Below, one piece after another: positions 5,676-30,840 of a DNA stretch of 64,000 bases. How positions within the stretch are numbered: position 1 is the stretch's first letter; the number at the start of each line of letters is the position of its first letter. Source of the DNA: an uncultured bacterium (lineage in GTDB: Bacteria; Patescibacteriota; Saccharimonadia; UBA4664). Location of the stretch: assembly GCA_963720265.1 (NCBI GenBank), contig CAVRET010000001.1, forward strand, positions 69,916 to 133,915, written 5' to 3'. The position numbers and the translations under genes are program-made. The notes under the pieces were generated by a model that was given only the letters and a program-made list of their open reading frames with translations, had not been told where the DNA came from and made no database searches.

Positions 5676-6257
5676 ATGGCTGCTCAGCCTGGGGCGGGCG
5701 GCGACCAGCCTGTAGATGTTCTACCACAACTCGAAGCACTAGCGTTGGCTTGTGCGTCTGGTTCGCCAGAGCGAGAGAGGCTCGAGGAGGTGCTGGCCTT
5801 CGCGCGAGAGCTCCAAGGCCGCTCCCCAAGTCTCTCTCAAGTGGCCGAAACCCGAGGCACGTCCGTGTCGAGACTGCTTGCTGGGGCGTTTGGCCGCATG
5901 GGGGTCAAAAGGCCGGTGCCGCCGATCGCAGAACCTATGCCGCTCCCCGCGGGGGGAACCCATCAGTTTGGGCTCATCGCGATGAAAGTAGATCGGCGTC
6001 TCTGCTTGGTGAATGGTATTCCGACGCAGCGGCTTACCCCAATAGAGTTCTCTGTTTTGTTGCTGCTCGTGGCAGCACGAGGGCTCGTTGTAACTCGAGA
6101 GCAGATTTGTTCGACGATTTGGGGGCGGCCGGAGCACGAAATGGGTCCGAGTCTCAATCAGAGCGTCACGCAAATTCGTCGCAAGCTCGAACGATATGCG
6201 GGACTGCTCGGGAGCGACCCAAGGGTGGGATACTATGTGAAGGAGACGCTCGAGTAG
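5676..6257 (+). CDS. Orphan OmpR/PhoB-type winged-helix transcriptional regulator (C-terminal Trans_reg_C domain, no receiver domain)
   Basis: The C-terminal segment LTPIEFSVLLLLVAARGLVVTREQICSTIWG...SLNQSVTQIRRKLE...GYYV matches the OmpR DNA-binding domain. The N-terminal 100 aa lacks receiver Asp residues. The second ATG at 5676 has a GGAAGGAG RBS 5 nt upstream; the tracker start is 5661. Confidence 0.6.
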   Translation: MAAQPGAGGDQPVDVLPQLEALALACASGSPERERLEEVLAFARELQGRSPSLSQVAETRGTSVSRLLAGAFGRMGVKRPVPPIAEPMPLPAGGTHQFGLIAMKVDRRLCLVNGIPTQRLTPIEFSVLLLLVAARGLVVTREQICSTIWGRPEHEMGPSLNQSVTQIRRKLERYAGLLGSDPRVGYYVKETLE

Positions 6258-21120: not shown

Positions 21121-21147
21121 TAAAATATACATTGTGCGACACAATGT
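21121..21147 (-). terminator. Hairpin (acattgtg-cga-cacaatgt) followed by a T-run on the - strand, downstream of the T4SS-like ATPase gene
   Basis: The 8-bp stem is seen directly. The - strand continues atatttta. Confidence 0.35.
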
Positions 21148-21239: not shown

Positions 21240-24035
21240 TTAGCGAAAACTAATTGCTTCCCCCGGCGCAACCGTAGCCGTCTGGTGATGCGTAGCTGGT
21301 TGTGGCGGTTGTTGTACAGCGGTAGGCTGCGTGGCTTGGGCGGGTACAGCGGGTACAGCGGGTACAGCGGGTACAGCGGGTACAGCGGGCGTTGCGGCTG
21401 GTGTGCGGGCCGGGAACGGTCCAGCCGAAGCGGACGGGGGAATGTGCGCCTGTCCCCCGTTTCCTCTCCGTGCTTCTCCCCTGCTTGCGTTTTCGTGGCG
21501 CGAGTGGTCGCCGCCCGCCCTGCTTCCTTGTCGATCTCCTCCACTTCTATTGGCATTCCCCCGCTGCATGGTGGGTGGCAGGCCGGGATTTTTAAGACTA
21601 CCTAAAAATTCTTTGTTCGGGTTTTGTGTGCGTTCGGCGACTGCTTCAGCTTGAGCCTCTTCCTGTGTGGCAGTGCGTGAACGGATGTCGGCTTCAACCG
21701 CGTCGCGATGAGAGGCGTAATGTGCGCGCGACATTTCGATAATCTGAGGCGTGCGATCGTATTCGGGGTCGGGCATACGTAAGGTCGTGGCCGAGAACGG
21801 TGCGGCTTTTTCGCCATTGATAATCATGGAGATGAAAATGTTCTGGTTGTGGAGCTTGGTAAGGTCGGCAGCCTCGAATGTGGGCTCGTAGTATTTGCCC
21901 AGCACAACCGCATCGCCCGGTCCGATACGGAACGTGATCATGGTACCGACGTTACCAAAAACGGCGTCGCGCACGACTTCGGGCATCTGAGCGACGTACT
22001 GGTTGGCGACGGTCAGGTTAAGGCCATACTTGCGGGCCTCGGACAGGATAACGGCGAACGAATCGGTGGCGAAGTTTTGGAACTCATCGACGTACAAGTA
22101 GAAGGGCCGGCGTTGATCGAGTGGCATGTCTGCGCGGGACATGGCGGCGAGCTGGATCTTGGTGACCATAAGGGCGCCCAAAATAGCAGCGTTGTCCTCC
22201 CCCACTTGACCGCGGCTGAGGTTGACGATAAGGATTTTGCCTTGGTCCATGATTTCGCGAATGTTGAAGGCAGATTCTTTTTGGCCGATGATGTTGCGGA
22301 TGAGCGGGTTGGCCACAAAGGCGCCGACCTTGTTCAGTACAGGAGCGACCGCCTCAGAGGCGAACTTTTCGTTCCAGGAGGCAAATTCGGTGACCCAGAA
22401 GCTGCGCACCACCGGGTCTTGAATGTGGGCTATCACGCGCTTACGGAAGGCCTTTTCGTTGAGCAGGCGTGGAATGTCGATCATGGTGGCGCCGGGGAAA
22501 TCGAGCAAGGCGAGCGCGGTGTAGCGCAGGATGTACTCGAGACGCGGGCCCCAGGAGTTTTCGAACATACGCTTGAGCACGCCTACGAGCTCAGACGCGA
22601 TATGGTTTTTAACATCTTCATCAACGACTTCGAGCGGGTTGAAGGCCATGGGAAAGTTGCGATCGGTGGCGTTGAAGTAGACGACATCCTGGAGTCGATG
22701 CTCGGGGATATATTTCATGACATCGGTGGCGAGGTCGCCGTGAGGGTCGACAATGGCGAAGCCCTCGTCGTGATAAATGTCGGATAGTGTGAGGAGTTGG
22801 AGCAAAAACGATTTGCCGGCGCCGGTTTGACCAACGACGTACATGTGGCGGCCACGGTCGGACCGCTTGATGCCAAATTTGAGCTGACGGCCGCGGAAAT
22901 TGGACAACCCAAAAAGGCTCAGGGCGTCGGGCTCGGTGAGGCCCTCGGTCGGCACGTTAGCCGGTGGCTCGGAGGTTTTGGCCGTGGTCCAGGCCATGTT
23001 GGGCGTTTCGACAGATTTGTGCGGTAAGTGATAGAGCGAGGCCAGCTCCTCGATGTTTAAGGTGTAGCCGCGATCAAAGAACAGCCGGGCCTGATAATCT
23101 TGTAAAAATTCCGGAGAATTGTACATTTTGGCATTGGTGAAGCCATTTAAGTTGGTGGTGTTGAACTGCTTAAAGCCACCGACGAGAGCCTGCAGGCGCT
23201 GCCGGGCGGTGGCTTCATCCGGCCCCAGATAGGCGATGCGGATTTTTACTTGGTAGCCGAGTTTGGTCATTTTTTCCTCAACCGCCTTAATAACGGTTTG
23301 TTGGCCGGTTGAAAGCTCTACTTTGGGCGTTTCCTTTTTGGCTGCGTTGGCACTCGGCGGTGTGGCTAAGGCCTTAAACGCATTGGACAGGATATAAATC
23401 GGGATCTGAAGCATGATGTCCATGAAGCGCTTGGTCATATCGGGTGTACCACCGCCCTTAACACCCTCAATGTAGCGCTTGCCGTCGTCTTGCCATGAGT
23501 CGTCAACCGGCCGGGCCAAAATTTGGATCCACGCCTCCTCCCCCATTTGCTCGAGCTTGGCGAGCACGCCGGTAATGCCGGCGAGAGGATCGACCTCGAA
23601 GCTAGCGAAGGTCTTGATGGGTGTTACGGCGTCTTTGGTGAGGCCGAGTTCCGTGCCGTAAATCGTGCGGCCGGCCACATCGACCTGTGAGTAGTCGTCA
23701 GGGTTTTCCTTGATTTGGACTGTGGGATACTGAGCGTAAATTTGGCTCTCAACAAAGTCTTTGAGATGAGTTGGGGTCCAGACGTAAAACTGGATGGCGC
23801 CTTTTCTCGATACGATTTCGAACGAAACGTGCTCCTGGATGGCGCCCTCGCGCTGCAGCTCAGAATGCGGGCGCAAAATACCGTGCAAGGAGGCAAACAT
23901 CTGCTCGGCCGAAAGCTCTTTTTTCTCGTTGTCGCGTGGGACTTCGATGAGTAGTAGCACGTTGTCGACAGTCTCGACCCAGTGCTCACGGCGGCGGTTT
24001 TGCCAGACCAAATAACCAAGCACCGCCACCACCAC
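21240..24035 (-). CDS. Membrane-anchored FtsK/HerA-superfamily P-loop ATPase of the type IV secretion / conjugation type (VirB4/VirD4-TraD-like, DUF87 AAA-like domain) with a disordered Pro/Ala-rich C-terminal tail
   Basis: The protein is 931 aa with an N-terminal TM. It carries a Walker A motif (VVGQTGAGKSF) and a Walker B-like motif (FYLYVDEFQNF). The C-terminus has five PAV repeats encoded by a 9-bp tandem repeat. Confidence 0.55.
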   Translation of the reverse strand: MVVAVLGYLVWQNRRREHWVETVDNVLLLIEVPRDNEKKELSAEQMFASLHGILRPHSELQREGAIQEHVSFEIVSRKGAIQFYVWTPTHLKDFVESQIYAQYPTVQIKENPDDYSQVDVAGRTIYGTELGLTKDAVTPIKTFASFEVDPLAGITGVLAKLEQMGEEAWIQILARPVDDSWQDDGKRYIEGVKGGGTPDMTKRFMDIMLQIPIYILSNAFKALATPPSANAAKKETPKVELSTGQQTVIKAVEEKMTKLGYQVKIRIAYLGPDEATARQRLQALVGGFKQFNTTNLNGFTNAKMYNSPEFLQDYQARLFFDRGYTLNIEELASLYHLPHKSVETPNMAWTTAKTSEPPANVPTEGLTEPDALSLFGLSNFRGRQLKFGIKRSDRGRHMYVVGQTGAGKSFLLQLLTLSDIYHDEGFAIVDPHGDLATDVMKYIPEHRLQDVVYFNATDRNFPMAFNPLEVVDEDVKNHIASELVGVLKRMFENSWGPRLEYILRYTALALLDFPGATMIDIPRLLNEKAFRKRVIAHIQDPVVRSFWVTEFASWNEKFASEAVAPVLNKVGAFVANPLIRNIIGQKESAFNIREIMDQGKILIVNLSRGQVGEDNAAILGALMVTKIQLAAMSRADMPLDQRRPFYLYVDEFQNFATDSFAVILSEARKYGLNLTVANQYVAQMPEVVRDAVFGNVGTMITFRIGPGDAVVLGKYYEPTFEAADLTKLHNQNIFISMIINGEKAAPFSATTLRMPDPEYDRTPQIIEMSRAHYASHRDAVEADIRSRTATQEEAQAEAVAERTQNPNKEFLGSLKNPGLPPTMQRGNANRSGGDRQGSRAGGDHSRHENASRGEARRGNGGQAHIPPSASAGPFPARTPAATPAVPAVPAVPAVPAVPAQATQPTAVQQPPQPATHHQTATVAPGEAISFR
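21342..21386. repeat. Perfect 9-bp tandem repeat (gggtacagc x5) inside the 3' end of the ATPase gene, encoding (PAV)n
   Basis: Seen directly. A partial sixth copy lies upstream at 21314-21322. Confidence 0.9.
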
Positions 24036-24167
24036 GACCCAACCGTTGAATCGGAATAAAATGAGGCCGATAAGATCAAGGATAGCCGTAACTGGGCTCA
24101 GGAGACTTGAGATATTCGTAGTTGCCCTCCTCTGTGCGCTGTTATGTGGCGACTAAGTGGTACGCGA

Positions 24168-25211
24168 TTAGTCTTCTTTTAGTTTATACGTTGCTTTGGC
24201 CGTGCGCTGGAATTGGTCTTTTTCTTGCAGGTTGAGAATGATGGTGGTGGTTTTGACCTGGCGCTTAGCTAGCACGCGGCGGACGATCTCGTCCTTGTGC
24301 AGTGGCTGCTCACCACGAAGGATGTCAACAATGATGTCAGCTACGGTGCCGGGTGTGTAGCCCCATTCGGCAAGGGCGTAGATGCCGCGGCCGATAAGAA
24401 TAAAGCGCTGGTCTTTGATGAGCTCGTTGTGGACGGCCTGGACTGTCACATTGCGCTTGGTAGTGCCAAGGCCGCGCACGTGGGTCGCGATGTCGGAAAA
24501 GTGCAGCGGTCGGCCGTGACGTGACAGTACTAGGTAGGTCTTGTCACGGATGCTCTTGGGGTTGACCTCAGGCCAGCTTGTAAGCCCCCACTTGCCGTCA
24601 AAGTGGGCCAGGTGCTTAGAGGCACGCATGAGCTGCTCAAGCGTGATACTTTCAAGCTCGGACGGCAGTTTGGCTTTGAGCTTAGCGAGCGTCGGCGGTT
24701 TGCCGTAGTCTTTGATGGTTTTGATAATCTCGGCCAGCAGAGCCATAACGTTGGCGCGCGAGTAAATTGGGGCCAAAGTGATGGCTTGGCGAATGTCGTC
24801 GTCTTCTTCGATGAGCTCAACGCCTGGGGCTAGGAGCGCCAAGAATACGAGGTATGGGGTGTCGTTTGCCGGTGCGCCGACGGCGGCCGCCACGTCACTC
24901 GTGAGGGCTACACCGCCGGTCCCTGCTACGATGTCACGCAATAAAGCGTCGGCCCGAGCAATTTCGGCCGATTCGCTGGCCCGCATTTTGGCAATGGCGG
25001 CCTTTTCGATCTGGCGCACACGTTCGCGGGTGATATCAAAGTCGCTGCCGATCTTTTCGAGCGTTTGGCGACGGGTCAAACCAAAGCCAAACCGCCGCGC
25101 AATAATTTGGCGGTCACGATCCCTGCGCAACTCGGCCAGGATCTGGTTGGCGCTGGCTTTGTAGTCGTAGGTGGTGTTGGGTTTGGCTGTAGTTTCGTTT
25201 GTCATACTCAA
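24168..25211 (-). CDS. Putative transcriptional regulator with an N-terminal sigma-70 region-4-like HTH and a C-terminal winged-helix-like domain
   Basis: The N-terminal RRFGFGLTRRQTLEKIGSDFDITRERVRQIEKAAIAKMR matches sigma-70 region 4.2. No region 2 is present. The C-terminal HFSDIATHVRGLG...VTVQAVHNELIKDQRFILIGRGIYAL is wHTH-like. Confidence 0.5.
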   Translation of the reverse strand: MSMTNETTAKPNTTYDYKASANQILAELRRDRDRQIIARRFGFGLTRRQTLEKIGSDFDITRERVRQIEKAAIAKMRASESAEIARADALLRDIVAGTGGVALTSDVAAAVGAPANDTPYLVFLALLAPGVELIEEDDDIRQAITLAPIYSRANVMALLAEIIKTIKDYGKPPTLAKLKAKLPSELESITLEQLMRASKHLAHFDGKWGLTSWPEVNPKSIRDKTYLVLSRHGRPLHFSDIATHVRGLGTTKRNVTVQAVHNELIKDQRFILIGRGIYALAEWGYTPGTVADIIVDILRGEQPLHKDEIVRRVLAKRQVKTTTIILNLQEKDQFQRTAKATYKLKED

Positions 25212-25295
25212 AAAGTATAAAACATTATAGGAATAGTGTCAACAATATTGTGTACTCTTCACTCCCCCGCCCTATTGTTGTCTTGTGATGTAATA

Positions 25296-28591: not shown

Positions 28592-28600
28592 GATGGTTCC

Positions 28601-28906
28601 TTAAAAATGTAAATTGTCCGGTGAAGTGAGGTCATTATAGTCATCTTCGCCGAGCGAGCCAACCTCAAGCAGGTAGGCCAGGTCGGCGAGGTAGCTGTCG
28701 GTAACTTCTGCTAGGCGCGGTGACTTGCGGTCGGCCAGGATGCGCAGGGTGGCGATGGAATCTCTTATGAATTCCTCGACTTCATCGGCTGTCATCATCT
28801 CGCCCTCGGTGAGCTCGGGGTTTGATACACAGCGGGCCGGCGGCTCAACACCATTGGCTTCAAAATCCGCCAGTCGCCAGGCGAGTTCAGATGCAGGACG
28901 GTTCAT
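28601..28906 (-). CDS. Small acidic protein, paralogue family A (N-terminal SELAWxLAxFxAxGVEPPxxCVxN motif)
   Basis: A 101-aa ORF that ends 9 nt upstream of glyQS. Its N-terminal 30 aa are shared with 29243-29563. Confidence 0.45.
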   Translation of the reverse strand: MNRPASELAWRLADFEANGVEPPARCVSNPELTEGEMMTADEVEEFIRDSIATLRILADRKSPRLAEVTDSYLADLAYLLEVGSLGEDDYNDLTSPDNLHF

Positions 28907-29045
28907 TGGGTTATTTTAGCAGATCATTCCAGGCTAAATTGAGCTGCTACTCCCAGGCGGTCGGCGCGCGGCCGCCTGGGAGTAGCTCGCAATGGGACTG
29001 GTGGTGGCTGGTGAGCCGCCGTGGTGACCGGATGGATGAGCCCGT

Positions 29046-29336
29046 TCAGGCCGCCTGGATGCCCGAAACCAACGTGAGCCGGGCGGTGACAGTGCTGTTG
29101 TCGGCCATGAATCGCCGAACAGCCGACTCCGGAATGCGGATATTGCATCCGATACGGATATTGCATCCGATGCTGTAATGCCCGATCTCGCGCCTTGCGC
29201 ACAGGCGGTGGACCGTCGTGGCGCTGACACGCAAAAACGCGGCTAGCTCGTCAGATGTCCACAGGGGCCCGATCGTGTCAACGGTGTGCTCGTCCATTTC
29301 TCCCGCTGTGAGCAGGTGCTCATTGTCGCCGTCCAT
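29046..29336 (-). CDS. BldC/Xis-type (MerR-superfamily excisionase-fold) HTH protein containing an in-frame 18-bp tandem duplication
   Basis: DNEHLLTAGE...DELAAFLRVSATTVHRLCARREI...IPESAVRRFM resembles BldC. The IGCNIR segment is duplicated. The start is ambiguous and overlaps the neighbouring ORF. Confidence 0.45.
   Translation of the reverse strand: MDGDNEHLLTAGEMDEHTVDTIGPLWTSDELAAFLRVSATTVHRLCARREIGHYSIGCNIRIGCNIRIPESAVRRFMADNSTVTARLTLVSGIQAA
29137..29172. repeat. 18-bp tandem duplication (cggatattgcatccgat a/g) x2 within the HTH gene
   Basis: Seen directly. It encodes IGCNIR-IGCNIR. Confidence 0.85.
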
Positions 29337-29563
29337 GCGTTGCCTCTTCCTGATCTTGGCCGTGCGGCCTGATGTGAAGCGCAGGCCAAGCCGGCCCAGC
29401 CTTCGAGGAGGGTTTCCTCATTTATTACCTTGGCACAGATACGAATCGTGTCAATGCTTGAGTGCCAGATGGTGCTCGTAGAATTTGTCACACAGCCGGT
29501 TGGCGGCTCAACGCCGGCGGCGCGGAAGCCAGCCAGTTTCCAAGCTAATTCCGAGTGTGTCAT
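29243..29563 (-). CDS. Small protein, paralogue family B (shares the SELAWKLAGFRAAGVEPPTGCVTN N-terminus with 28601-28906); diverged C-terminus
   Basis: The start is placed at the internal Met of the tracker ORF 29243-29692. It overlaps the start of 29046-29336 in another frame. Confidence 0.35.
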   Translation of the reverse strand: MTHSELAWKLAGFRAAGVEPPTGCVTNSTSTIWHSSIDTIRICAKVINEETLLEGWAGLACASHQAARPRSGRGNAWTATMSTCSQREKWTSTPLTRSGPCGHLTS

Positions 29564-29630
29564 GCGGGTATTGTAACGAATGATTTGTGGCAGCTGGCGC
29601 GCGGGATGGGTTGCGGCCCATCCCGCGGCG

Positions 29631-30191
29631 TCAACGTTGGGCTCGCTCGGCGGCGAGCTCCCGGATGTAGCTTTCCGAAAAGCGTGGGTCACCTTGCTGA
29701 ACGACCCCAGTTGTTGGAAGACGTATCGCAGTTATCCTCCTCTTGCCCAGGGCAATGAAGACTGCGTACGGTGTGATGCCCAGAATTTCGGCGGCCTCTT
29801 TAAGGGTTAGAAGCCGTTTCAGCCGTCCCTCCTCCTGGCCGATTAGTTGCCGAATGTGGTACTCCGGGAAGCGCCATACCGTTCTTGGCGAGGATGTGGC
29901 CTTAACGGCCACTAGCAGTCCCTCAGACGCGAATCGCCTGACGGTCTGCGGGTTGATCCTCATCAAGTCAGCGACTTCTTCAGCAAACAGGATTCGCTCG
30001 TACATGAGCGAGCATCCTGCCGGTAGTCGCAGTACGGCTCTGATCATGTCTTCAGTTGTGCGGCCCTGTTCGCGGTCGGCGGCGGTCCGGGCCAATAGGC
30101 CGCCGGTTGCGAGCATTTGCCGACCAATCGACTGCCCGACACGAAAGATTAGGCAGACCTTTTGTAGGTCGTGGTTAGGTCGGGGCATCAC
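29631..30191 (-). CDS. Tandem triple BldC-like HTH protein (three Xis/MerR-type HTH_17 repeats)
   Basis: The repeats are VCLIFRVGQSIGRQ..., ILFAEEVADLMRINPQTVRRFASEGLL...WRFPEYHIRQLI and LLTLKEAAEILGITPYAVFIALGKRRITAIRLP...FSESYIRELA. Confidence 0.6.
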   Translation of the reverse strand: MMPRPNHDLQKVCLIFRVGQSIGRQMLATGGLLARTAADREQGRTTEDMIRAVLRLPAGCSLMYERILFAEEVADLMRINPQTVRRFASEGLLVAVKATSSPRTVWRFPEYHIRQLIGQEEGRLKRLLTLKEAAEILGITPYAVFIALGKRRITAIRLPTTGVVQQGDPRFSESYIRELAAERAQR

Positions 30192-30757
30192 TCTCCCCTC
30201 GTGGCTCGGAGGAGCCTCATGGTTCGAAGCAGCGCTTCTACGGAACTGGTGCGGAACAACCTGCTCCGACCGCTCGGCGTTCGGATTGACTCAAGCTTGC
30301 CGGTTCTACCCCACAGGTTGACGGTTTCCTTGCTACGGCCCAGTCGGTGGGACGTTTCACTGGCGGTCATGAAAGGATCGTCGAAGAGATCGCCATACGG
30401 TTGTCCGATGTATACTCGCACGAGCCGTTCATTGGCTAGATGGTCTCCGCCCGGTGTTCGGACAGCGCCGAACAGTCCCTCGTCGCACCATCTAGCGGCA
30501 GTGGTGATGTCTACCCTGAATAGCTGGTGGAGCTCGTTGGTAGTGAGCCAAGCCAGCTCCATCTCCTCGTTTTCGCGCAGCCTGAGGTGTCGGCGGAGGA
30601 CGCTTTCGCGGAACAGGCGGCCTCGACCACTGACGAATTCCGACTCGATGAGCCCTGCGGTGATCCACCGGTGAACGGTGGTGTTCGTGTCCACCCGGAA
30701 TAGCCGTGCGACTTCCCTTATGCGGTAGTAGGTTACGCCCCCAATGCGTGTGGGCAT
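30188..30757 (-). CDS. Tandem triple BldC-like HTH protein
   Basis: The repeats are YYRIREVARLFRVDTNTTVHRWITAGLI..., WLTTNELHQLFRVDITTAARWCDEGLFGAVRTPGGDH... and FMTASETSHRLGRSKETVNLWGRTGKLESIRTPSGRSRLFRTSSVEALL. The start is at an internal Met with a GGAAGGGA RBS; the tracker ORF extends to 30829. Confidence 0.6.
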   Translation of the reverse strand: MPTRIGGVTYYRIREVARLFRVDTNTTVHRWITAGLIESEFVSGRGRLFRESVLRRHLRLRENEEMELAWLTTNELHQLFRVDITTAARWCDEGLFGAVRTPGGDHLANERLVRVYIGQPYGDLFDDPFMTASETSHRLGRSKETVNLWGRTGKLESIRTPSGRSRLFRTSSVEALLRTMRLLRATRGE

Positions 30758-30840
30758 GGCGCTCGTCCCTTCCAGTAGGTACCGCTTATACCACGATGAT
30801 AGATTGCAAATTTTATAGATTGATGTCAATACATGTGTAT
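30758..30840 (-). promoter_or_regulatory. AT-rich internal promoter-like region inside the island (TTGACA / TTGCAA and TATAAA / TATAAG elements)
   Basis: The local GC drops sharply. On the - strand the sequence tattgacatcaatctataaaatttgcaatctatcatcgtggtataagc precedes the RBS of 30188-30757. Confidence 0.35.

What the first reader, a model, noticed from the sequence alone, without database searches (positions are those of the whole stretch)
21240..24035. Orphan type IV secretion / conjugation-type P-loop ATPase in place of ftsA-ftsZ after ftsQ
A 931-aa membrane-anchored ATPase sits convergently right after the dcw cluster. It has Walker A GQTGAGKS and Walker B LYVDEFQ and is VirB4/VirD4/TraD-like. 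No other T4SS components (VirB6/8, relaxase, pilins) are within 20 kb on either side. Its C-terminus is a long disordered Gly/Arg/Pro tail.

It may be a remnant, a component of a dispersed secretion or DNA-uptake system, or an ATPase repurposed for another process.
Basis: partly seen in the sequence, partly recalled or inferred. Interest (0 to 1): 0.55.

Follow-up and report, generated by a model that had tools for sequence, protein, structure and literature searches.

The report
Conserved Saccharibacteria type IV coupling ATPase
The "orphan" ATPase is a strongly conserved Saccharibacteria gene for a VirD4/TrwB-type type IV coupling ATPase that always travels with a DNA-binding partner gene; relatives on Gram-positive plasmids sit inside conjugation gene clusters, so it is probably the separately encoded motor of the phylum's type IV secretion system.

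Summary
The ORF, its Walker motifs, its basic disordered tail and the lack of T4SS genes within 20 kb are all confirmed. It is neither a remnant nor a stand-in for ftsA-ftsZ. The ATPase half belongs to the VirD4/TrwB coupling-protein (T4CP) family by sequence and predicted fold, not to FtsK, HerA or VirB4. The N-terminal 360 residues are Pfam DUF8128, whose predicted fold matches only the VirB4 N-terminal domain in the PDB. The gene occurs in at least 565 Saccharimonadia species and is under strong purifying selection (dN/dS about 0.06). A sigma70-region-4/HARE-HTH gene lies directly upstream in 73 of 77 loci. In Parcubacteria the same module is three genes: HARE-HTH, DUF8128 and ATPase. On Bacillaceae and Embleya plasmids the full-length architecture sits beside VirB4-like, TcpC/D/E or PrgI and replication-relaxation genes, which is where a coupling protein belongs. 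Published work already reports that patescibacterial T4CP homologues lie far from virB4, and that the Southlakia orthologue is non-essential while its partner is essential. The best reading is a domesticated coupling ATPase of a dispersed T4SS. Its substrate and the partner's role are inferred, not shown.

The parts
21240..24119 (-). Whole gene for the DUF8128 + VirD4/TrwB-type ATPase. As called it runs 21240..24035 (931 aa); the probable true start is at ACG 24119..24117 or ATC 24113..24111 (about 957-959 aa).
24125..24131 (-). Shine-Dalgarno-like AGGAGGG, 5 nt upstream of the ACG codon that aligns with the ATG of homologues.
   Evidence: the same arrangement occurs in L164/L165
24003..24113 (-). 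N-terminal hydrophobic segment (extended residues 1-37, interrupted by R21). It is modelled as two helices and is the presumed two-helix membrane anchor, followed by the basic stretch QNRRRE.
22956..23963 (-). DUF8128 (PF26449) alpha/beta domain, extended residues 51-386. The predicted fold matches the VirB4 N-terminal domain. It is a separate gene in Parcubacteria and haloarchaeal plasmids.
21714..22955 (-). VirD4/TrwB-type nucleotide-binding domain (extended residues 387-800).
22809..22832 (-). Walker A motif, GQTGAGKS.
22083..22100 (-). Walker B motif, YLYVDE(FQ).
22287..22619 (-). All-helical insertion in the ATPase domain (model residues 499-609), the counterpart of the TrwB all-alpha domain.
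   Evidence: secondary structure; TrwB aligned over ~415 of ~420 residues
21240..21713 (-). Basic, Pro/Ala/Gly/Arg-rich, low-confidence C-terminal tail (pI 10.5). It is the fastest-evolving part of the protein.
21340..21389 (.). Perfect 9-bp tandem repeat, 5.6 copies, encoding (PAV)5 within the tail.
24168..25211 (-). Partner gene (347 aa): sigma70 region 4 (residues ~11-87) plus a HARE-HTH domain (222-283). It lies directly upstream on the same strand. The orthologue is essential in Southlakia.
25214..25242 (-). Promoter-like site TTGACA-17-TATACT (11 of 12 matches) directly upstream of the partner gene. No promoter-like or terminator-like site was found between the two genes.
   Evidence: consensus scan only
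21129..21147 (.). 8-bp-stem palindromic hairpin between the convergent ATPase and ftsQ genes. It looks like a terminator on both strands.
   Evidence: consensus scan only

Best explanation
The gene encodes the Saccharimonadia form of a Patescibacteria-wide coupling-protein module.

Shown:
- The protein has four parts: a short two-helix membrane anchor, a cytoplasmic DUF8128 domain, a VirD4/TrwB-type ATPase with an all-alpha insertion, and a basic disordered tail.
- DUF8128 and the ATPase are separate adjacent genes in Parcubacteria and are fused here.
- A sigma70-region-4/HARE-HTH gene precedes them in both classes.
- Proteins with the same full-length architecture sit inside conjugative T4SS gene clusters on Bacillaceae and Embleya plasmids, next to VirB4-like and replication-relaxation genes.

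Inferred:
- The protein forms a membrane-bound hexamer that acts as the substrate receptor and motor (T4CP) of the chromosomal, monoderm-type T4SS, which Saccharibacteria encode elsewhere (near dnaA in Southlakia).
- DUF8128, whose predicted fold resembles the VirB4 N-terminal domain, docks the motor onto the VirB4/VirB3/VirB8-like base. In R388, VirB4 subunits dimerise purely through that domain.
- The HTH partner, or the basic tail, supplies or recognises a nucleic-acid or nucleoprotein substrate, taking the genomic place that the DNA-processing gene holds beside the T4CP on plasmids.
- As with VirD4 in Agrobacterium (my own knowledge), the motor would be dispensable for pilus or adhesion functions. 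That would explain why the T4SS is essential in co-culture while this gene is not.
For: - Family: Pfam TrwB_AAD_bind is above threshold in 30 of 30 family members, TraG-D_C matches at E<=0.01 in 30 of 30 (21.7 bits against a cutoff of 22 in the window protein), and T4SS-DNA_transf matches at E<=0.01 in 20 of 30. The best NCBIfam hit is the monoderm VirD4-like CD1115 family.
- PDB sequence and profile searches return only TrwB and DotL.
- The AF2 model (pLDDT 83) superposes on TrwB with TM 0.65-0.68 and rmsd ~4 A over ~415 columns.
- The DUF8128-only model gives VirB4/TrwK chains as its top 13 PDB hits (E 4e-6 to 3e-4, probability 1.0) and nothing else credible.
- The VirB4 N-domain mediates VirB4 dimerisation and binds VirB3 and VirB8 (PMC9259494).
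- Split versus fused forms and module linkage. In Parcubacteria-type loci, HARE-HTH is upstream in 50 of 61, the ATPase downstream in 52 of 63, and all three genes are present in 37 of 51. In Saccharimonadia, HARE-HTH is upstream in 73 of 77.
- Plasmid homologues: B. subtilis plasmid protein, 25% identity over 751 columns, E 5e-49, DUF8128 profile probability 97.8%. Embleya plasmid protein, 28% identity over 761 columns, E 3e-81, DUF8128 probability 90.8%. Their neighbours are Replic_Relax, TcpC, TcpD/E, an AAA_10 VirB4-like ATPase and PrgI. No other T4CP candidate is annotated on the 31.5 kb Shouchella plasmid.
- Selection: dN/dS 0.059 overall and 0.025 in the ATPase.
- Literature: 5,713 VirD4-type homologues in 2,918 of 3,035 patescibacterial genomes, only 148 near virB4; the patescibacterial VirB4 clade is nested in monoderm MPF-FATA (PMC12102498). 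The Southlakia T4SS cluster lacks a coupling protein (PMC10633639).
Against: - No T4SS gene lies in the 64 kb window or within 10 kb in any of 81 Saccharimonadia loci, so the link to the T4SS is indirect.
- The Southlakia orthologue SEML1_0293 is called non-essential although the T4SS is essential. Its reads fall only about 4-fold (5817 to 1372) over the passages.
- T4CP homologues occur in more genomes (2,918) than VirB4 (2,417), which hints at T4SS-independent use, although MAG incompleteness could explain it.
- No relaxase accompanies the module.
- The partner is essential and looks RNA-polymerase-related (sigma region 4, delta-like HARE-HTH), so it may simply be a co-transcribed regulator.
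- The VirB4-N-domain likeness rests on a moderate model (pLDDT 73) with TM only 0.35-0.40 and has no sequence support: Pfam CagE_TrbE_VirB matches 0 of 30, and hhalign against TrsD/TrsE is negative.
- The tail is basic, unlike the acidic tails of TraD and VirD4.
- A second DUF8128-ATPase paralogue exists elsewhere in these genomes.
Confidence: 0.5

Rival explanations
1. A T4SS-independent, membrane-anchored nucleic-acid translocase. The DUF8128-ATPase hexamer works with the sigma4/HARE-HTH protein as its DNA- or RNA-polymerase-recognition subunit, much as the FtsK gamma domain or the Streptomyces TraB winged helix guide their motors. It acts on chromosomal DNA (segregation, export or exchange) without the VirB4 machine.
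For: - The module is more widespread than VirB4 (2,918 versus 2,417 of 3,035 genomes).
- It is never next to T4SS genes in 161 patescibacterial loci.
- Its linkage to a multi-HTH protein is conserved.
- It lies next to the dcw cluster in most Saccharimonadia and to parA-parB in Nanosynbacter.
- It is non-essential while the T4SS is essential.
- Phage homologues lie beside partition and integrase genes.
Against: - Full-length homologues outside the phylum sit inside T4SS clusters.
- Neighbours other than the HARE-HTH gene are not conserved between classes.
- A complete, essential FtsK already exists in Southlakia.
- The partner's essentiality is not shared by the ATPase.
Confidence: 0.27
2. A divergent VirB4-type assembly ATPase (VirB3-VirB4 fusion-like: TM helices + VirB4 N-domain + ATPase) rather than a coupling protein.
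For: Full-length VirB4/TrwK chains give the best Foldseek E-values for the whole model. They are also the only credible hits for DUF8128 alone.
Against: - No sequence signal for VirB4: CagE_TrbE_VirB matches 0 of 30, AAA_10 scores 16 bits against a cutoff of 27.5, and no VirB4 chain appears in the PDB sequence or profile searches.
- A TrwB-like all-alpha insertion is present.
- On plasmids and in phage G, a separate VirB4-like ATPase is encoded right beside the homologue.
- Saccharibacteria have their own VirB4.
Confidence: 0.08
3. A decaying remnant of an integrated conjugative element.
For: No T4SS or relaxase genes lie nearby. In this sublineage the start codon is non-canonical.
Against: - dN/dS is about 0.06 and the Walker motifs are invariant.
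- The gene holds the same syntenic position in at least 565 species (synteny checked in the 81 fetched loci).
- G+C is uniform and no integrase or repeats flank it.
- It is a 'core family' in Wang et al. Table S1.
Confidence: 0.02
4. An FtsK/SpoIIIE-like division or segregation translocase, or a HerA-type ATPase of an anti-phage defence system.
For: - It sits next to the dcw cluster.
- There is a weak DUF87 match.
- PADLOC matches mad8 at 56 bits and HerA at 33 bits.
Against: - FtsK_SpoIIIE is below threshold, and no 4TM, alpha or gamma domains are present.
- A separate essential FtsK exists in Southlakia.
- The mad8 profile was built from HHpred/PDB alignments and is generic.
- No methylase, nuclease, Sir2 or NurA partner lies nearby.
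Confidence: 0.04

Closest known systems
TrwB (R388) / VirD4-family type IV coupling proteins, including the monoderm 'VirD4-like CD1115' family (e.g. pGO1 TrsK)
   Same: - N-terminal membrane anchor.
- FtsK/HerA-superfamily ATPase with Walker A and B motifs.
- An all-alpha domain insertion, and a conserved ARKYGL...NQY segment that aligns to TrwB GRKAGL...LQS.
- Pfam TrwB_AAD_bind above its cutoff, TraG-D_C just below its cutoff (21.7 bits against 22).
- Fold TM 0.65-0.68 to TrwB.
   Different: - About 335 extra residues (DUF8128) lie between the anchor and the ATPase.
- The tail is basic rather than acidic.
- The gene is chromosomal, vertically inherited and far from any T4SS or relaxase gene.
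- It is paired with a sigma4/HARE-HTH gene.
- It scores far below the NCBIfam equivalog cutoffs (52 against 250).
DUF8128-containing T4CP-like proteins of Bacillaceae plasmids (B. subtilis NRS6116_2, Shouchella clausii) and of an Embleya plasmid
   Same: The full-length architecture is the same and alignment runs end to end (25-28% identity, E 5e-49 and 3e-81). The DUF8128 profile matches at 91-98% probability.
   Different: The plasmid proteins lie within conjugation clusters (Replic_Relax, TcpC/D/E or PrgI, VirB4-like ATPase, cell-wall hydrolase) and have no HARE-HTH neighbour.
VirB4 / TrwK (R388 T4SS inner-membrane complex)
   Same: Two-domain layout. The DUF8128 model matches only VirB4 chains in the PDB. 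TM helices precede it, as in VirB3-VirB4 arrangements.
   Different: No sequence similarity to the VirB4 N- or C-domain profiles. The protein has an all-alpha insertion, and separate VirB4 genes coexist with it.
SEML1_0293 / SEML1_0294 of Southlakia epibionticum ML1 (Wang et al. 2023)
   Same: An orthologous adjacent pair with the same domain positions (PF10412 at 402-719; Sigma70_r4 + HARE-HTH).
   Different: In ML1 the downstream neighbours are a GNAT gene and CRISPR-Cas9, not the dcw cluster. That study left the N-terminal domain unassigned and described the T4SS as lacking a coupling protein.
FtsK/SpoIIIE and Streptomyces TraB DNA translocases
   Same: The same ATPase superfamily, membrane anchorage, and the recurring theme of a motor combined with a winged-helix DNA reader.
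   Different: The Pfam FtsK model is below threshold. There is no gamma domain, and the HTH protein is a separate gene product. A genuine FtsK exists in the lineage.

Membership tests
Type IV coupling protein (VirD4/TrwB) | FtsK/HerA-superfamily nucleotide-binding domain with intact Walker A and Walker B motifs | tested here: met
   GQTGAGKS and YLYVDE are present. G, K, S, D and E are invariant across 30 and across 106 homologues.
Type IV coupling protein (VirD4/TrwB) | Sequence match to curated T4CP models above threshold | tested here: met
   Pfam TrwB_AAD_bind scores 32.2 bits against a cutoff of 20.5 and matches 30 of 30 members; T4SS-DNA_transf matches 20 of 30. NCBIfam equivalog cutoffs are not reached (CD1115: 52.5 against 250).
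Type IV coupling protein (VirD4/TrwB) | All-alpha domain inserted in the ATPase fold | tested here: met
   Model helices 499-609 form the insertion. TrwB-deltaN70 aligns over ~415 of ~420 residues with TM 0.65-0.68. This rests on a predicted structure only.
Type IV coupling protein (VirD4/TrwB) | N-terminal transmembrane anchor | tested here: met
   A 37-residue hydrophobic N-terminus, modelled as two helices, appears once the start is corrected. Topology was not tested experimentally.
Type IV coupling protein (VirD4/TrwB) | Encoded with a T4SS and/or a relaxase | tested here: not met
   None is found in the window or in 81 Saccharimonadia loci. The feature is met for full-length homologues on plasmids. 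Published data show this is the norm in Patescibacteria.
Type IV coupling protein (VirD4/TrwB) | Recruits substrates to a T4SS channel | not testable with these tools
   This needs genetics or biochemistry. The Southlakia orthologue is non-essential in Tn-seq.
VirB4 | Match to VirB4 sequence models (CagE_TrbE_VirB, AAA_10) | tested here: not met
   CagE_TrbE_VirB matches 0 of 30. AAA_10 scores 16.3 bits against a cutoff of 27.5. No VirB4 chain appears in the PDB profile search at E<=1.
VirB4 | VirB4-type N-terminal domain fold | tested here: inconclusive
FtsK/SpoIIIE | FtsK_SpoIIIE motor domain above threshold, plus 4TM, alpha and gamma domains | tested here: not met
   FtsK_SpoIIIE scores 13.8 bits against a cutoff of 24 and gives only weak matches in 4 of 30 members. 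The other FtsK domains are absent. Southlakia has a complete FtsK, SEML1_0096.
HerA-type helicase / defence ATPases (SIR2-HerA, MADS Mad8) | HerA architecture with a partner nuclease or effector, or the MADS gene set | tested here: not met
   DUF87 is only marginal (25.0 bits against 23.2) and HerA_C matches 1 of 30. The PADLOC mad8 and HerA hits cover only the P-loop core, and the mad8 profile is generic. No partner genes lie nearby.
DUF8128 (PF26449) family | Match to the family across the N-terminal ~360 residues | tested here: met
   PF26449 is precomputed for all 120 listed homologues. phmmer with the domain alone finds 2,547 cluster representatives. The local Pfam copy lacks this model.

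The most novel reading that the evidence does not exclude
The trio of sigma4/HARE-HTH protein, DUF8128 adaptor and VirD4-like motor is a self-contained, phylum-wide machine. It would be an evolutionary intermediate between VirB4 and VirD4, keeping a VirB4-type N-domain while having a VirD4-type all-alpha domain. It would link the nucleoid or RNA polymerase to a membrane translocase and move nucleic acid between the epibiont and its host, either independently of the classical T4SS channel or as its long-sought substrate-selection step.
Probability: 0.15. Interest if true: 0.8.

Novelty: new variant of a known kind. Interest (0 to 1): 0.5.

Why it matters
Patescibacteria depend on host bacteria. 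Their T4SS is essential in the one species tested, yet nobody knows what it transports, and its gene cluster seems to lack a coupling protein. This analysis gives three concrete handles on that question:

1. The widespread "orphan" T4CP homologue has the same architecture as the coupling proteins found inside Gram-positive plasmid T4SS clusters.
2. Its extra N-terminal domain, DUF8128, is predicted to resemble the VirB4 domain that mediates docking at the T4SS base.
3. It is genetically tied, across classes, to an essential sigma-region-4/HARE-HTH protein. That points to a nucleic-acid or RNA-polymerase-linked substrate or regulator.

Southlakia is genetically tractable and the ATPase is non-essential there, so all three points can be tested directly. 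As far as the paper library searched here shows, neither DUF8128 nor the three-gene module has been described.

Tried and rejected
- FtsK replacement: rejected. The Pfam model is below threshold, and Southlakia has a complete essential FtsK.
- Remnant or pseudogene: rejected by dN/dS and conservation.
- Defence system: the PADLOC mad8 and HerA hits (ATPase) and the MzaA hit (partner) cover only generic P-loop or sigma-region-4 segments. The mad8 HMM derives from HHpred/PDB alignments.
- pLS20 assumption: I first took the Bacillus plasmids to be pLS20-family with a RelLS20 relaxase. The papers show that pLS20 gene 48 (T4CP) and gene 58 (MobL) are organised differently and that Replic_Relax is another family, so I withdrew this.
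- hhalign of DUF8128 and of the whole family against single pGO1 TrsD, TrsE and TrsK sequences: uninformative.
- Profile search of DUF8128 against PDB sequences: no hit in that region.
- Exact-sequence look-up of the window protein: not on record.
- Pfam tally on the 106-sequence alignment: too large, so it was redone on 30 sequences.
- Second T4CP-like copy near the gene: none in the window or in any fetched locus.
- Similarity between the HARE-HTH partner and the genes flanking the plasmid homologues: none.
- The Sulfitobacter plasmid hit (43.7% identity) is an ATPase-only fragment beside transposases and gives no functional clue.


Full report
**1. Observation**

The window holds an open reading frame at 21240..24035 on the minus strand. 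It encodes 931 aa with GQTGAGKS and YLYVDEFQ motifs. It is convergent with ftsQ at the end of an mraW-ftsI-mraY-ftsW-murG-ftsQ block.

The last ~155 residues are Ala/Pro/Gly/Arg-rich with pI 10.5 and low model confidence. They contain a perfect 9-bp x 5.6 tandem repeat encoding (PAV)5.

Every ORF of at least 150 aa in the window was scanned with Pfam and/or NCBIfam. All are housekeeping genes: aminoacyl-tRNA synthetases, SecA, the dcw genes, UGPase, CofD, RecO, ExoVII, CTP synthase, FtsEX, a release factor, PBP1, TopA and Clp. The small ORFs in intergenic gaps within 20 kb on either side include no pilin- or VirB3-like two-TM protein. G+C is uniform. The observation therefore stands.

Two details needed correcting.

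- The mechanically called GTG start lies inside the hydrophobic anchor. The frame stays open upstream, and the 26 preceding codons match the N-termini of homologues. They are conserved as protein through many synonymous changes in the closest relative. Translation must therefore begin near 24113-24119, behind an AGGAGGG motif, at ACG (where relatives have ATG) or at ATC two codons later.
- 'In place of ftsA-ftsZ' is not a replacement. In Southlakia epibionticum, ftsA-ftsZ (SEML1_0174-0175) lie about 100 genes from murG-ftsQ (SEML1_0275).

**2. What the protein is**

The ATPase half belongs to the VirD4/TrwB coupling-protein family.

- Pfam TrwB_AAD_bind scores 32.2 bits (cutoff 20.5) over residues 394-702.
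- DUF87 is marginal, and FtsK_SpoIIIE (13.8 against 24) and AAA_10 are below threshold.
- Across 30 family members, TrwB_AAD_bind and TraG-D_C match 30 of 30, T4SS-DNA_transf 20 of 30, FtsK 4 of 30 weakly, and the VirB4 N-domain model none.
- The best NCBIfam hit is the monoderm 'VirD4-like, CD1115' family, far below its equivalog cutoff.
- Against PDB sequences, both the single sequence and the family profiles find only TrwB (about 2e-6) and DotL.
- An AlphaFold2 model built from 106 homologues (pLDDT 83) superposes on TrwB-deltaN70 over essentially its whole length (TM 0.65-0.68, rmsd ~4 A). This includes an all-helical insertion at model residues 499-609.

The N-terminal ~360 residues are Pfam DUF8128 (PF26449). 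This is precomputed for all listed homologues, but the model is missing from the local Pfam copy.

- A separate model of this region, built from a cross-class alignment, has pLDDT 73 and pTM 0.67. Its top 13 PDB matches are 13 chains of one protein, TrwK/VirB4 of R388 (E 4e-6 to 3e-4, probability 1.0, TM 0.35-0.40). Only low-probability noise follows.
- TrwB, HerA and FtsK share the VirB4 C-domain fold but do not appear among these hits. The match must therefore be to the VirB4 N-terminal domain.
- This similarity is structural only. No profile-sequence signal was found, and the more sensitive fold libraries were unavailable. I rate it as moderately supported.

**3. Conservation and context**

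- More than 7,800 database proteins match, and the named ones are Saccharimonadia/Patescibacteria.
- A scan of GTDB species genomes found at least 565 species with a relative. The best 80 are all Saccharimonadia.
- Against an 87-89%-identical relative, dN/dS is 0.059 overall: ATPase 0.025, DUF8128 0.042, tail 0.156. dS is near saturation, so the ratios are approximate.
- The dcw cluster is convergent downstream in 52 of 64 loci with enough flank.
- The tighter linkage is upstream. A 347-aa gene (window 24168..25211) encoding sigma70 region 4 plus a HARE-HTH domain lies on the same strand within 2 kb in 73 of 77 loci.
- A near-consensus promoter precedes that gene. No promoter-like or terminator-like site separates the pair. 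A palindromic hairpin follows the ATPase gene (consensus scans only).

**4. Fused here, split elsewhere**

A phmmer search of 1.84 billion representatives with DUF8128 alone found 2,547 proteins in two forms.

- Fused proteins of 800-1,100 aa, like the window protein.
- Stand-alone proteins of 410-520 aa that end exactly where the ATPase begins. These come from Parcubacteria such as Candidatus Azambacteria.

In Parcubacteria the gene order is sigma4/HARE-HTH, then DUF8128, then a ~530-aa TrwB-type ATPase. The flanking genes (SecDF, EF-P, RNR) are entirely different from those in Saccharimonadia.

In 80 diverse metagenomic loci:

| Arrangement | Loci with it / loci with enough flank |
|---|---|
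| HARE-HTH gene directly upstream | 50 / 61 |
| ATPase gene directly downstream | 52 / 63 |
| All three genes together | 37 / 51 |

Cross-class identities are 34-35% for the partner, 36% for DUF8128 and 46-48% for the ATPase. This is a three-component module conserved across patescibacterial classes, with two components fused in Saccharimonadia.

**5. Homologues outside the phylum**

tblastn with DUF8128 hits 50 plasmids (Bacillaceae and haloarchaea) and three phages.

- On a B. subtilis plasmid and a 31.5 kb Shouchella clausii plasmid, an 883-913-aa protein aligns end to end with the window protein (25% identity, E 5e-49; DUF8128 profile probability 97.8%). It sits immediately upstream of a Replic_Relax gene and of TcpC, TcpD, TcpE and an ~850-aa AAA_10 VirB4-type ATPase. 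No other T4CP candidate is annotated on the small plasmid.
- On an Embleya plasmid, an 812-aa homologue (28% identity, E 3e-81; DUF8128 probability 90.8%) lies between a VirB4-like ATPase (preceded by PrgI) and a replication-relaxation gene.
- In Bacillus phage G, the homologue gp156 directly follows a VirB4-like protein, gp155.
- In a haloarchaeal plasmid, DUF8128 is again a separate gene overlapping the start of a 913-aa gene that gives only a weak, P-loop-region TrwB_AAD_bind match (21.5 bits).

So the DUF8128 + TrwB-type ATPase architecture is the coupling-protein slot of monoderm conjugation systems.

**6. Literature**

- Quinonero-Coronel et al. 2025 (PMC12102498) found VirB4 in 2,417 of 3,035 patescibacterial genomes. 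They found 5,713 VirD4-type homologues in 2,918 genomes, only 148 of them near virB4. They suggested possible exaptation. They place the patescibacterial VirB4 clade within the monoderm MPF-FATA class.
- Wang et al. 2023 (PMC10633639) described the essential Southlakia T4SS (SEML1_0006-0019) as lacking a recognisable coupling protein.
- Their tables show the orthologous pair. SEML1_0293 is a core, Patescibacteria-enriched family called non-essential. Its normalised reads fall from 5817 to 2940 to 1372 while its neighbours stay flat. SEML1_0294 (Sigma70_r4 + HARE-HTH) is essential. A complete essential FtsK is also present.
- Mace et al. 2022 (PMC9259494) show that in R388 the VirB4 N-domain alone mediates the central-outside VirB4 dimer and binds VirB3 and the VirB8 tails.
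- No paper in the library mentions DUF8128 or links HARE-HTH to Patescibacteria.

**7. Mechanism**

Shown: the architecture, family membership of the motor, the module, the fused and split forms, the plasmid contexts and purifying selection.

Inferred:
- A membrane-anchored hexameric T4CP serves the T4SS encoded elsewhere.
- DUF8128 acts as a VirB4-N-domain-like docking adaptor.
- The HTH partner and/or the basic tail is involved in selecting a nucleic-acid or nucleoprotein substrate, or the partner simply regulates.
- The gene is non-essential because pilus or adhesion functions of the T4SS do not need the coupling protein. The analogy is VirD4 in Agrobacterium (my own knowledge).

I put about 0.5 on this. 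The main rival, at about 0.27, is a T4SS-independent translocase that works with the HTH partner. It is favoured by the module being more widespread than VirB4 and never adjacent to T4SS genes in the phylum. A divergent VirB4, a remnant, an FtsK-like role and a defence role are all unlikely.

**8. Verdict**

That such genes sit far from virB4 in Patescibacteria is already published, and the gene is an ordinary member of a very large family.

What appears to be new:
- DUF8128 is predicted to resemble the VirB4 N-domain.
- The module linkage to an essential sigma4/HARE-HTH gene holds across classes.
- The same architecture sits in plasmid T4SS clusters.

I class it as a new variant of a known kind, of moderate interest.

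Noticed in passing
window 24111-24131 (-); L164/L165 about 5920-6000: The gene seems to start at a non-canonical codon. ACG sits where relatives have ATG, 5 nt after AGGAGGG, and ATC follows two codons later. The closest relative has the same arrangement, and gene callers truncate both proteins at an internal GTG. This may mean weak or regulated initiation.
   Followed up: partly
window 21340-21389: A perfect 9-bp tandem repeat (5.6 copies) encodes (PAV)5 in the basic tail. The tail is the fastest-evolving part of the protein (dN/dS 0.16) and its length varies among homologues.
   Followed up: partly
window 25205-25242 (-): A near-consensus promoter (TTGACA-17-TATACT) ends only ~3 nt before the first start codon of the sigma4/HARE-HTH gene. 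This suggests a leaderless or very short-leader transcript.
   Followed up: no
window 1-64000 (GC skew); genes at 21-57 kb: GC skew on the + strand is positive across the whole window. Yet from ~21 kb to ~57 kb nearly all genes lie on the - strand, including aminoacyl-tRNA synthetases, a release factor, TopA and PBP1. A long block of core genes thus appears to be encoded against the skew.
   Followed up: no
window 28600-30830: A cluster of small ORFs includes two paralogous ORFs (28601-28906 and 29243-29692) and several HTH_17/excisionase-like ORFs (29046-29336, 29631-30191, 30188-30829) between an aminoacyl-tRNA synthetase gene and recO. An HTH_17 gene occupies the same position in L164.
   Followed up: no
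L167/L168 10001-12562 (P0151): Saccharibacteria carry a second, shorter DUF8128-ATPase paralogue (853 aa) on the same contig as the orthologue. It lies next to a LytR_C-domain gene, YebC and RuvC, with no HARE-HTH or T4SS genes. This fits the ~2 T4CP homologues per genome reported in the literature.
   Followed up: partly
L169/L170 10001-12460 (P0404): In one Saccharibacteria lineage, the gene in the orthologous position (HARE-HTH upstream, dcw downstream) has diverged so far that Pfam no longer detects the TrwB domain.
   Followed up: partly
L038 9944-14781 (Nanosynbacter): In oral Nanosynbacter-type genomes the gene has lost the HARE-HTH neighbour and sits directly upstream of parA-parB.
   Followed up: partly
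L082 9288-10916; L083 9266-10837: The separate Parcubacteria ATPase ends in a Cys-rich zinc-finger (Pfam zf_Tbcl_2) instead of the basic Pro/Ala/Gly tail seen in Saccharimonadia.
   Followed up: no
L175 3276-7418 (Bacillus phage G gp155-gp156); L173 7785-10043 (phage D6E ORF23): Phages also carry DUF8128-ATPase proteins. In jumbo phage G the gene follows a VirB4-like gene. In temperate phage D6E it lies between a partition gene and an integrase.
   Followed up: partly
L177 7935-9122 (Sulfitobacter mediterraneus plasmid): A 395-aa ATPase-only protein is 43.7% identical to the window ATPase half, closer than any other plasmid hit. It sits beside transposases on an alphaproteobacterial plasmid and may be a horizontally acquired fragment.
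   Followed up: no
window 24168-25211 (-): The partner protein combines a genuine sigma70 region 4 (E 2e-11 to E. coli RpoD 534-609) with a HARE-HTH resembling the RNA polymerase delta subunit, but it has no sigma region 2. Its Southlakia orthologue is essential and annotated 'RpoS'. Its own function is an open question.
   Followed up: partly
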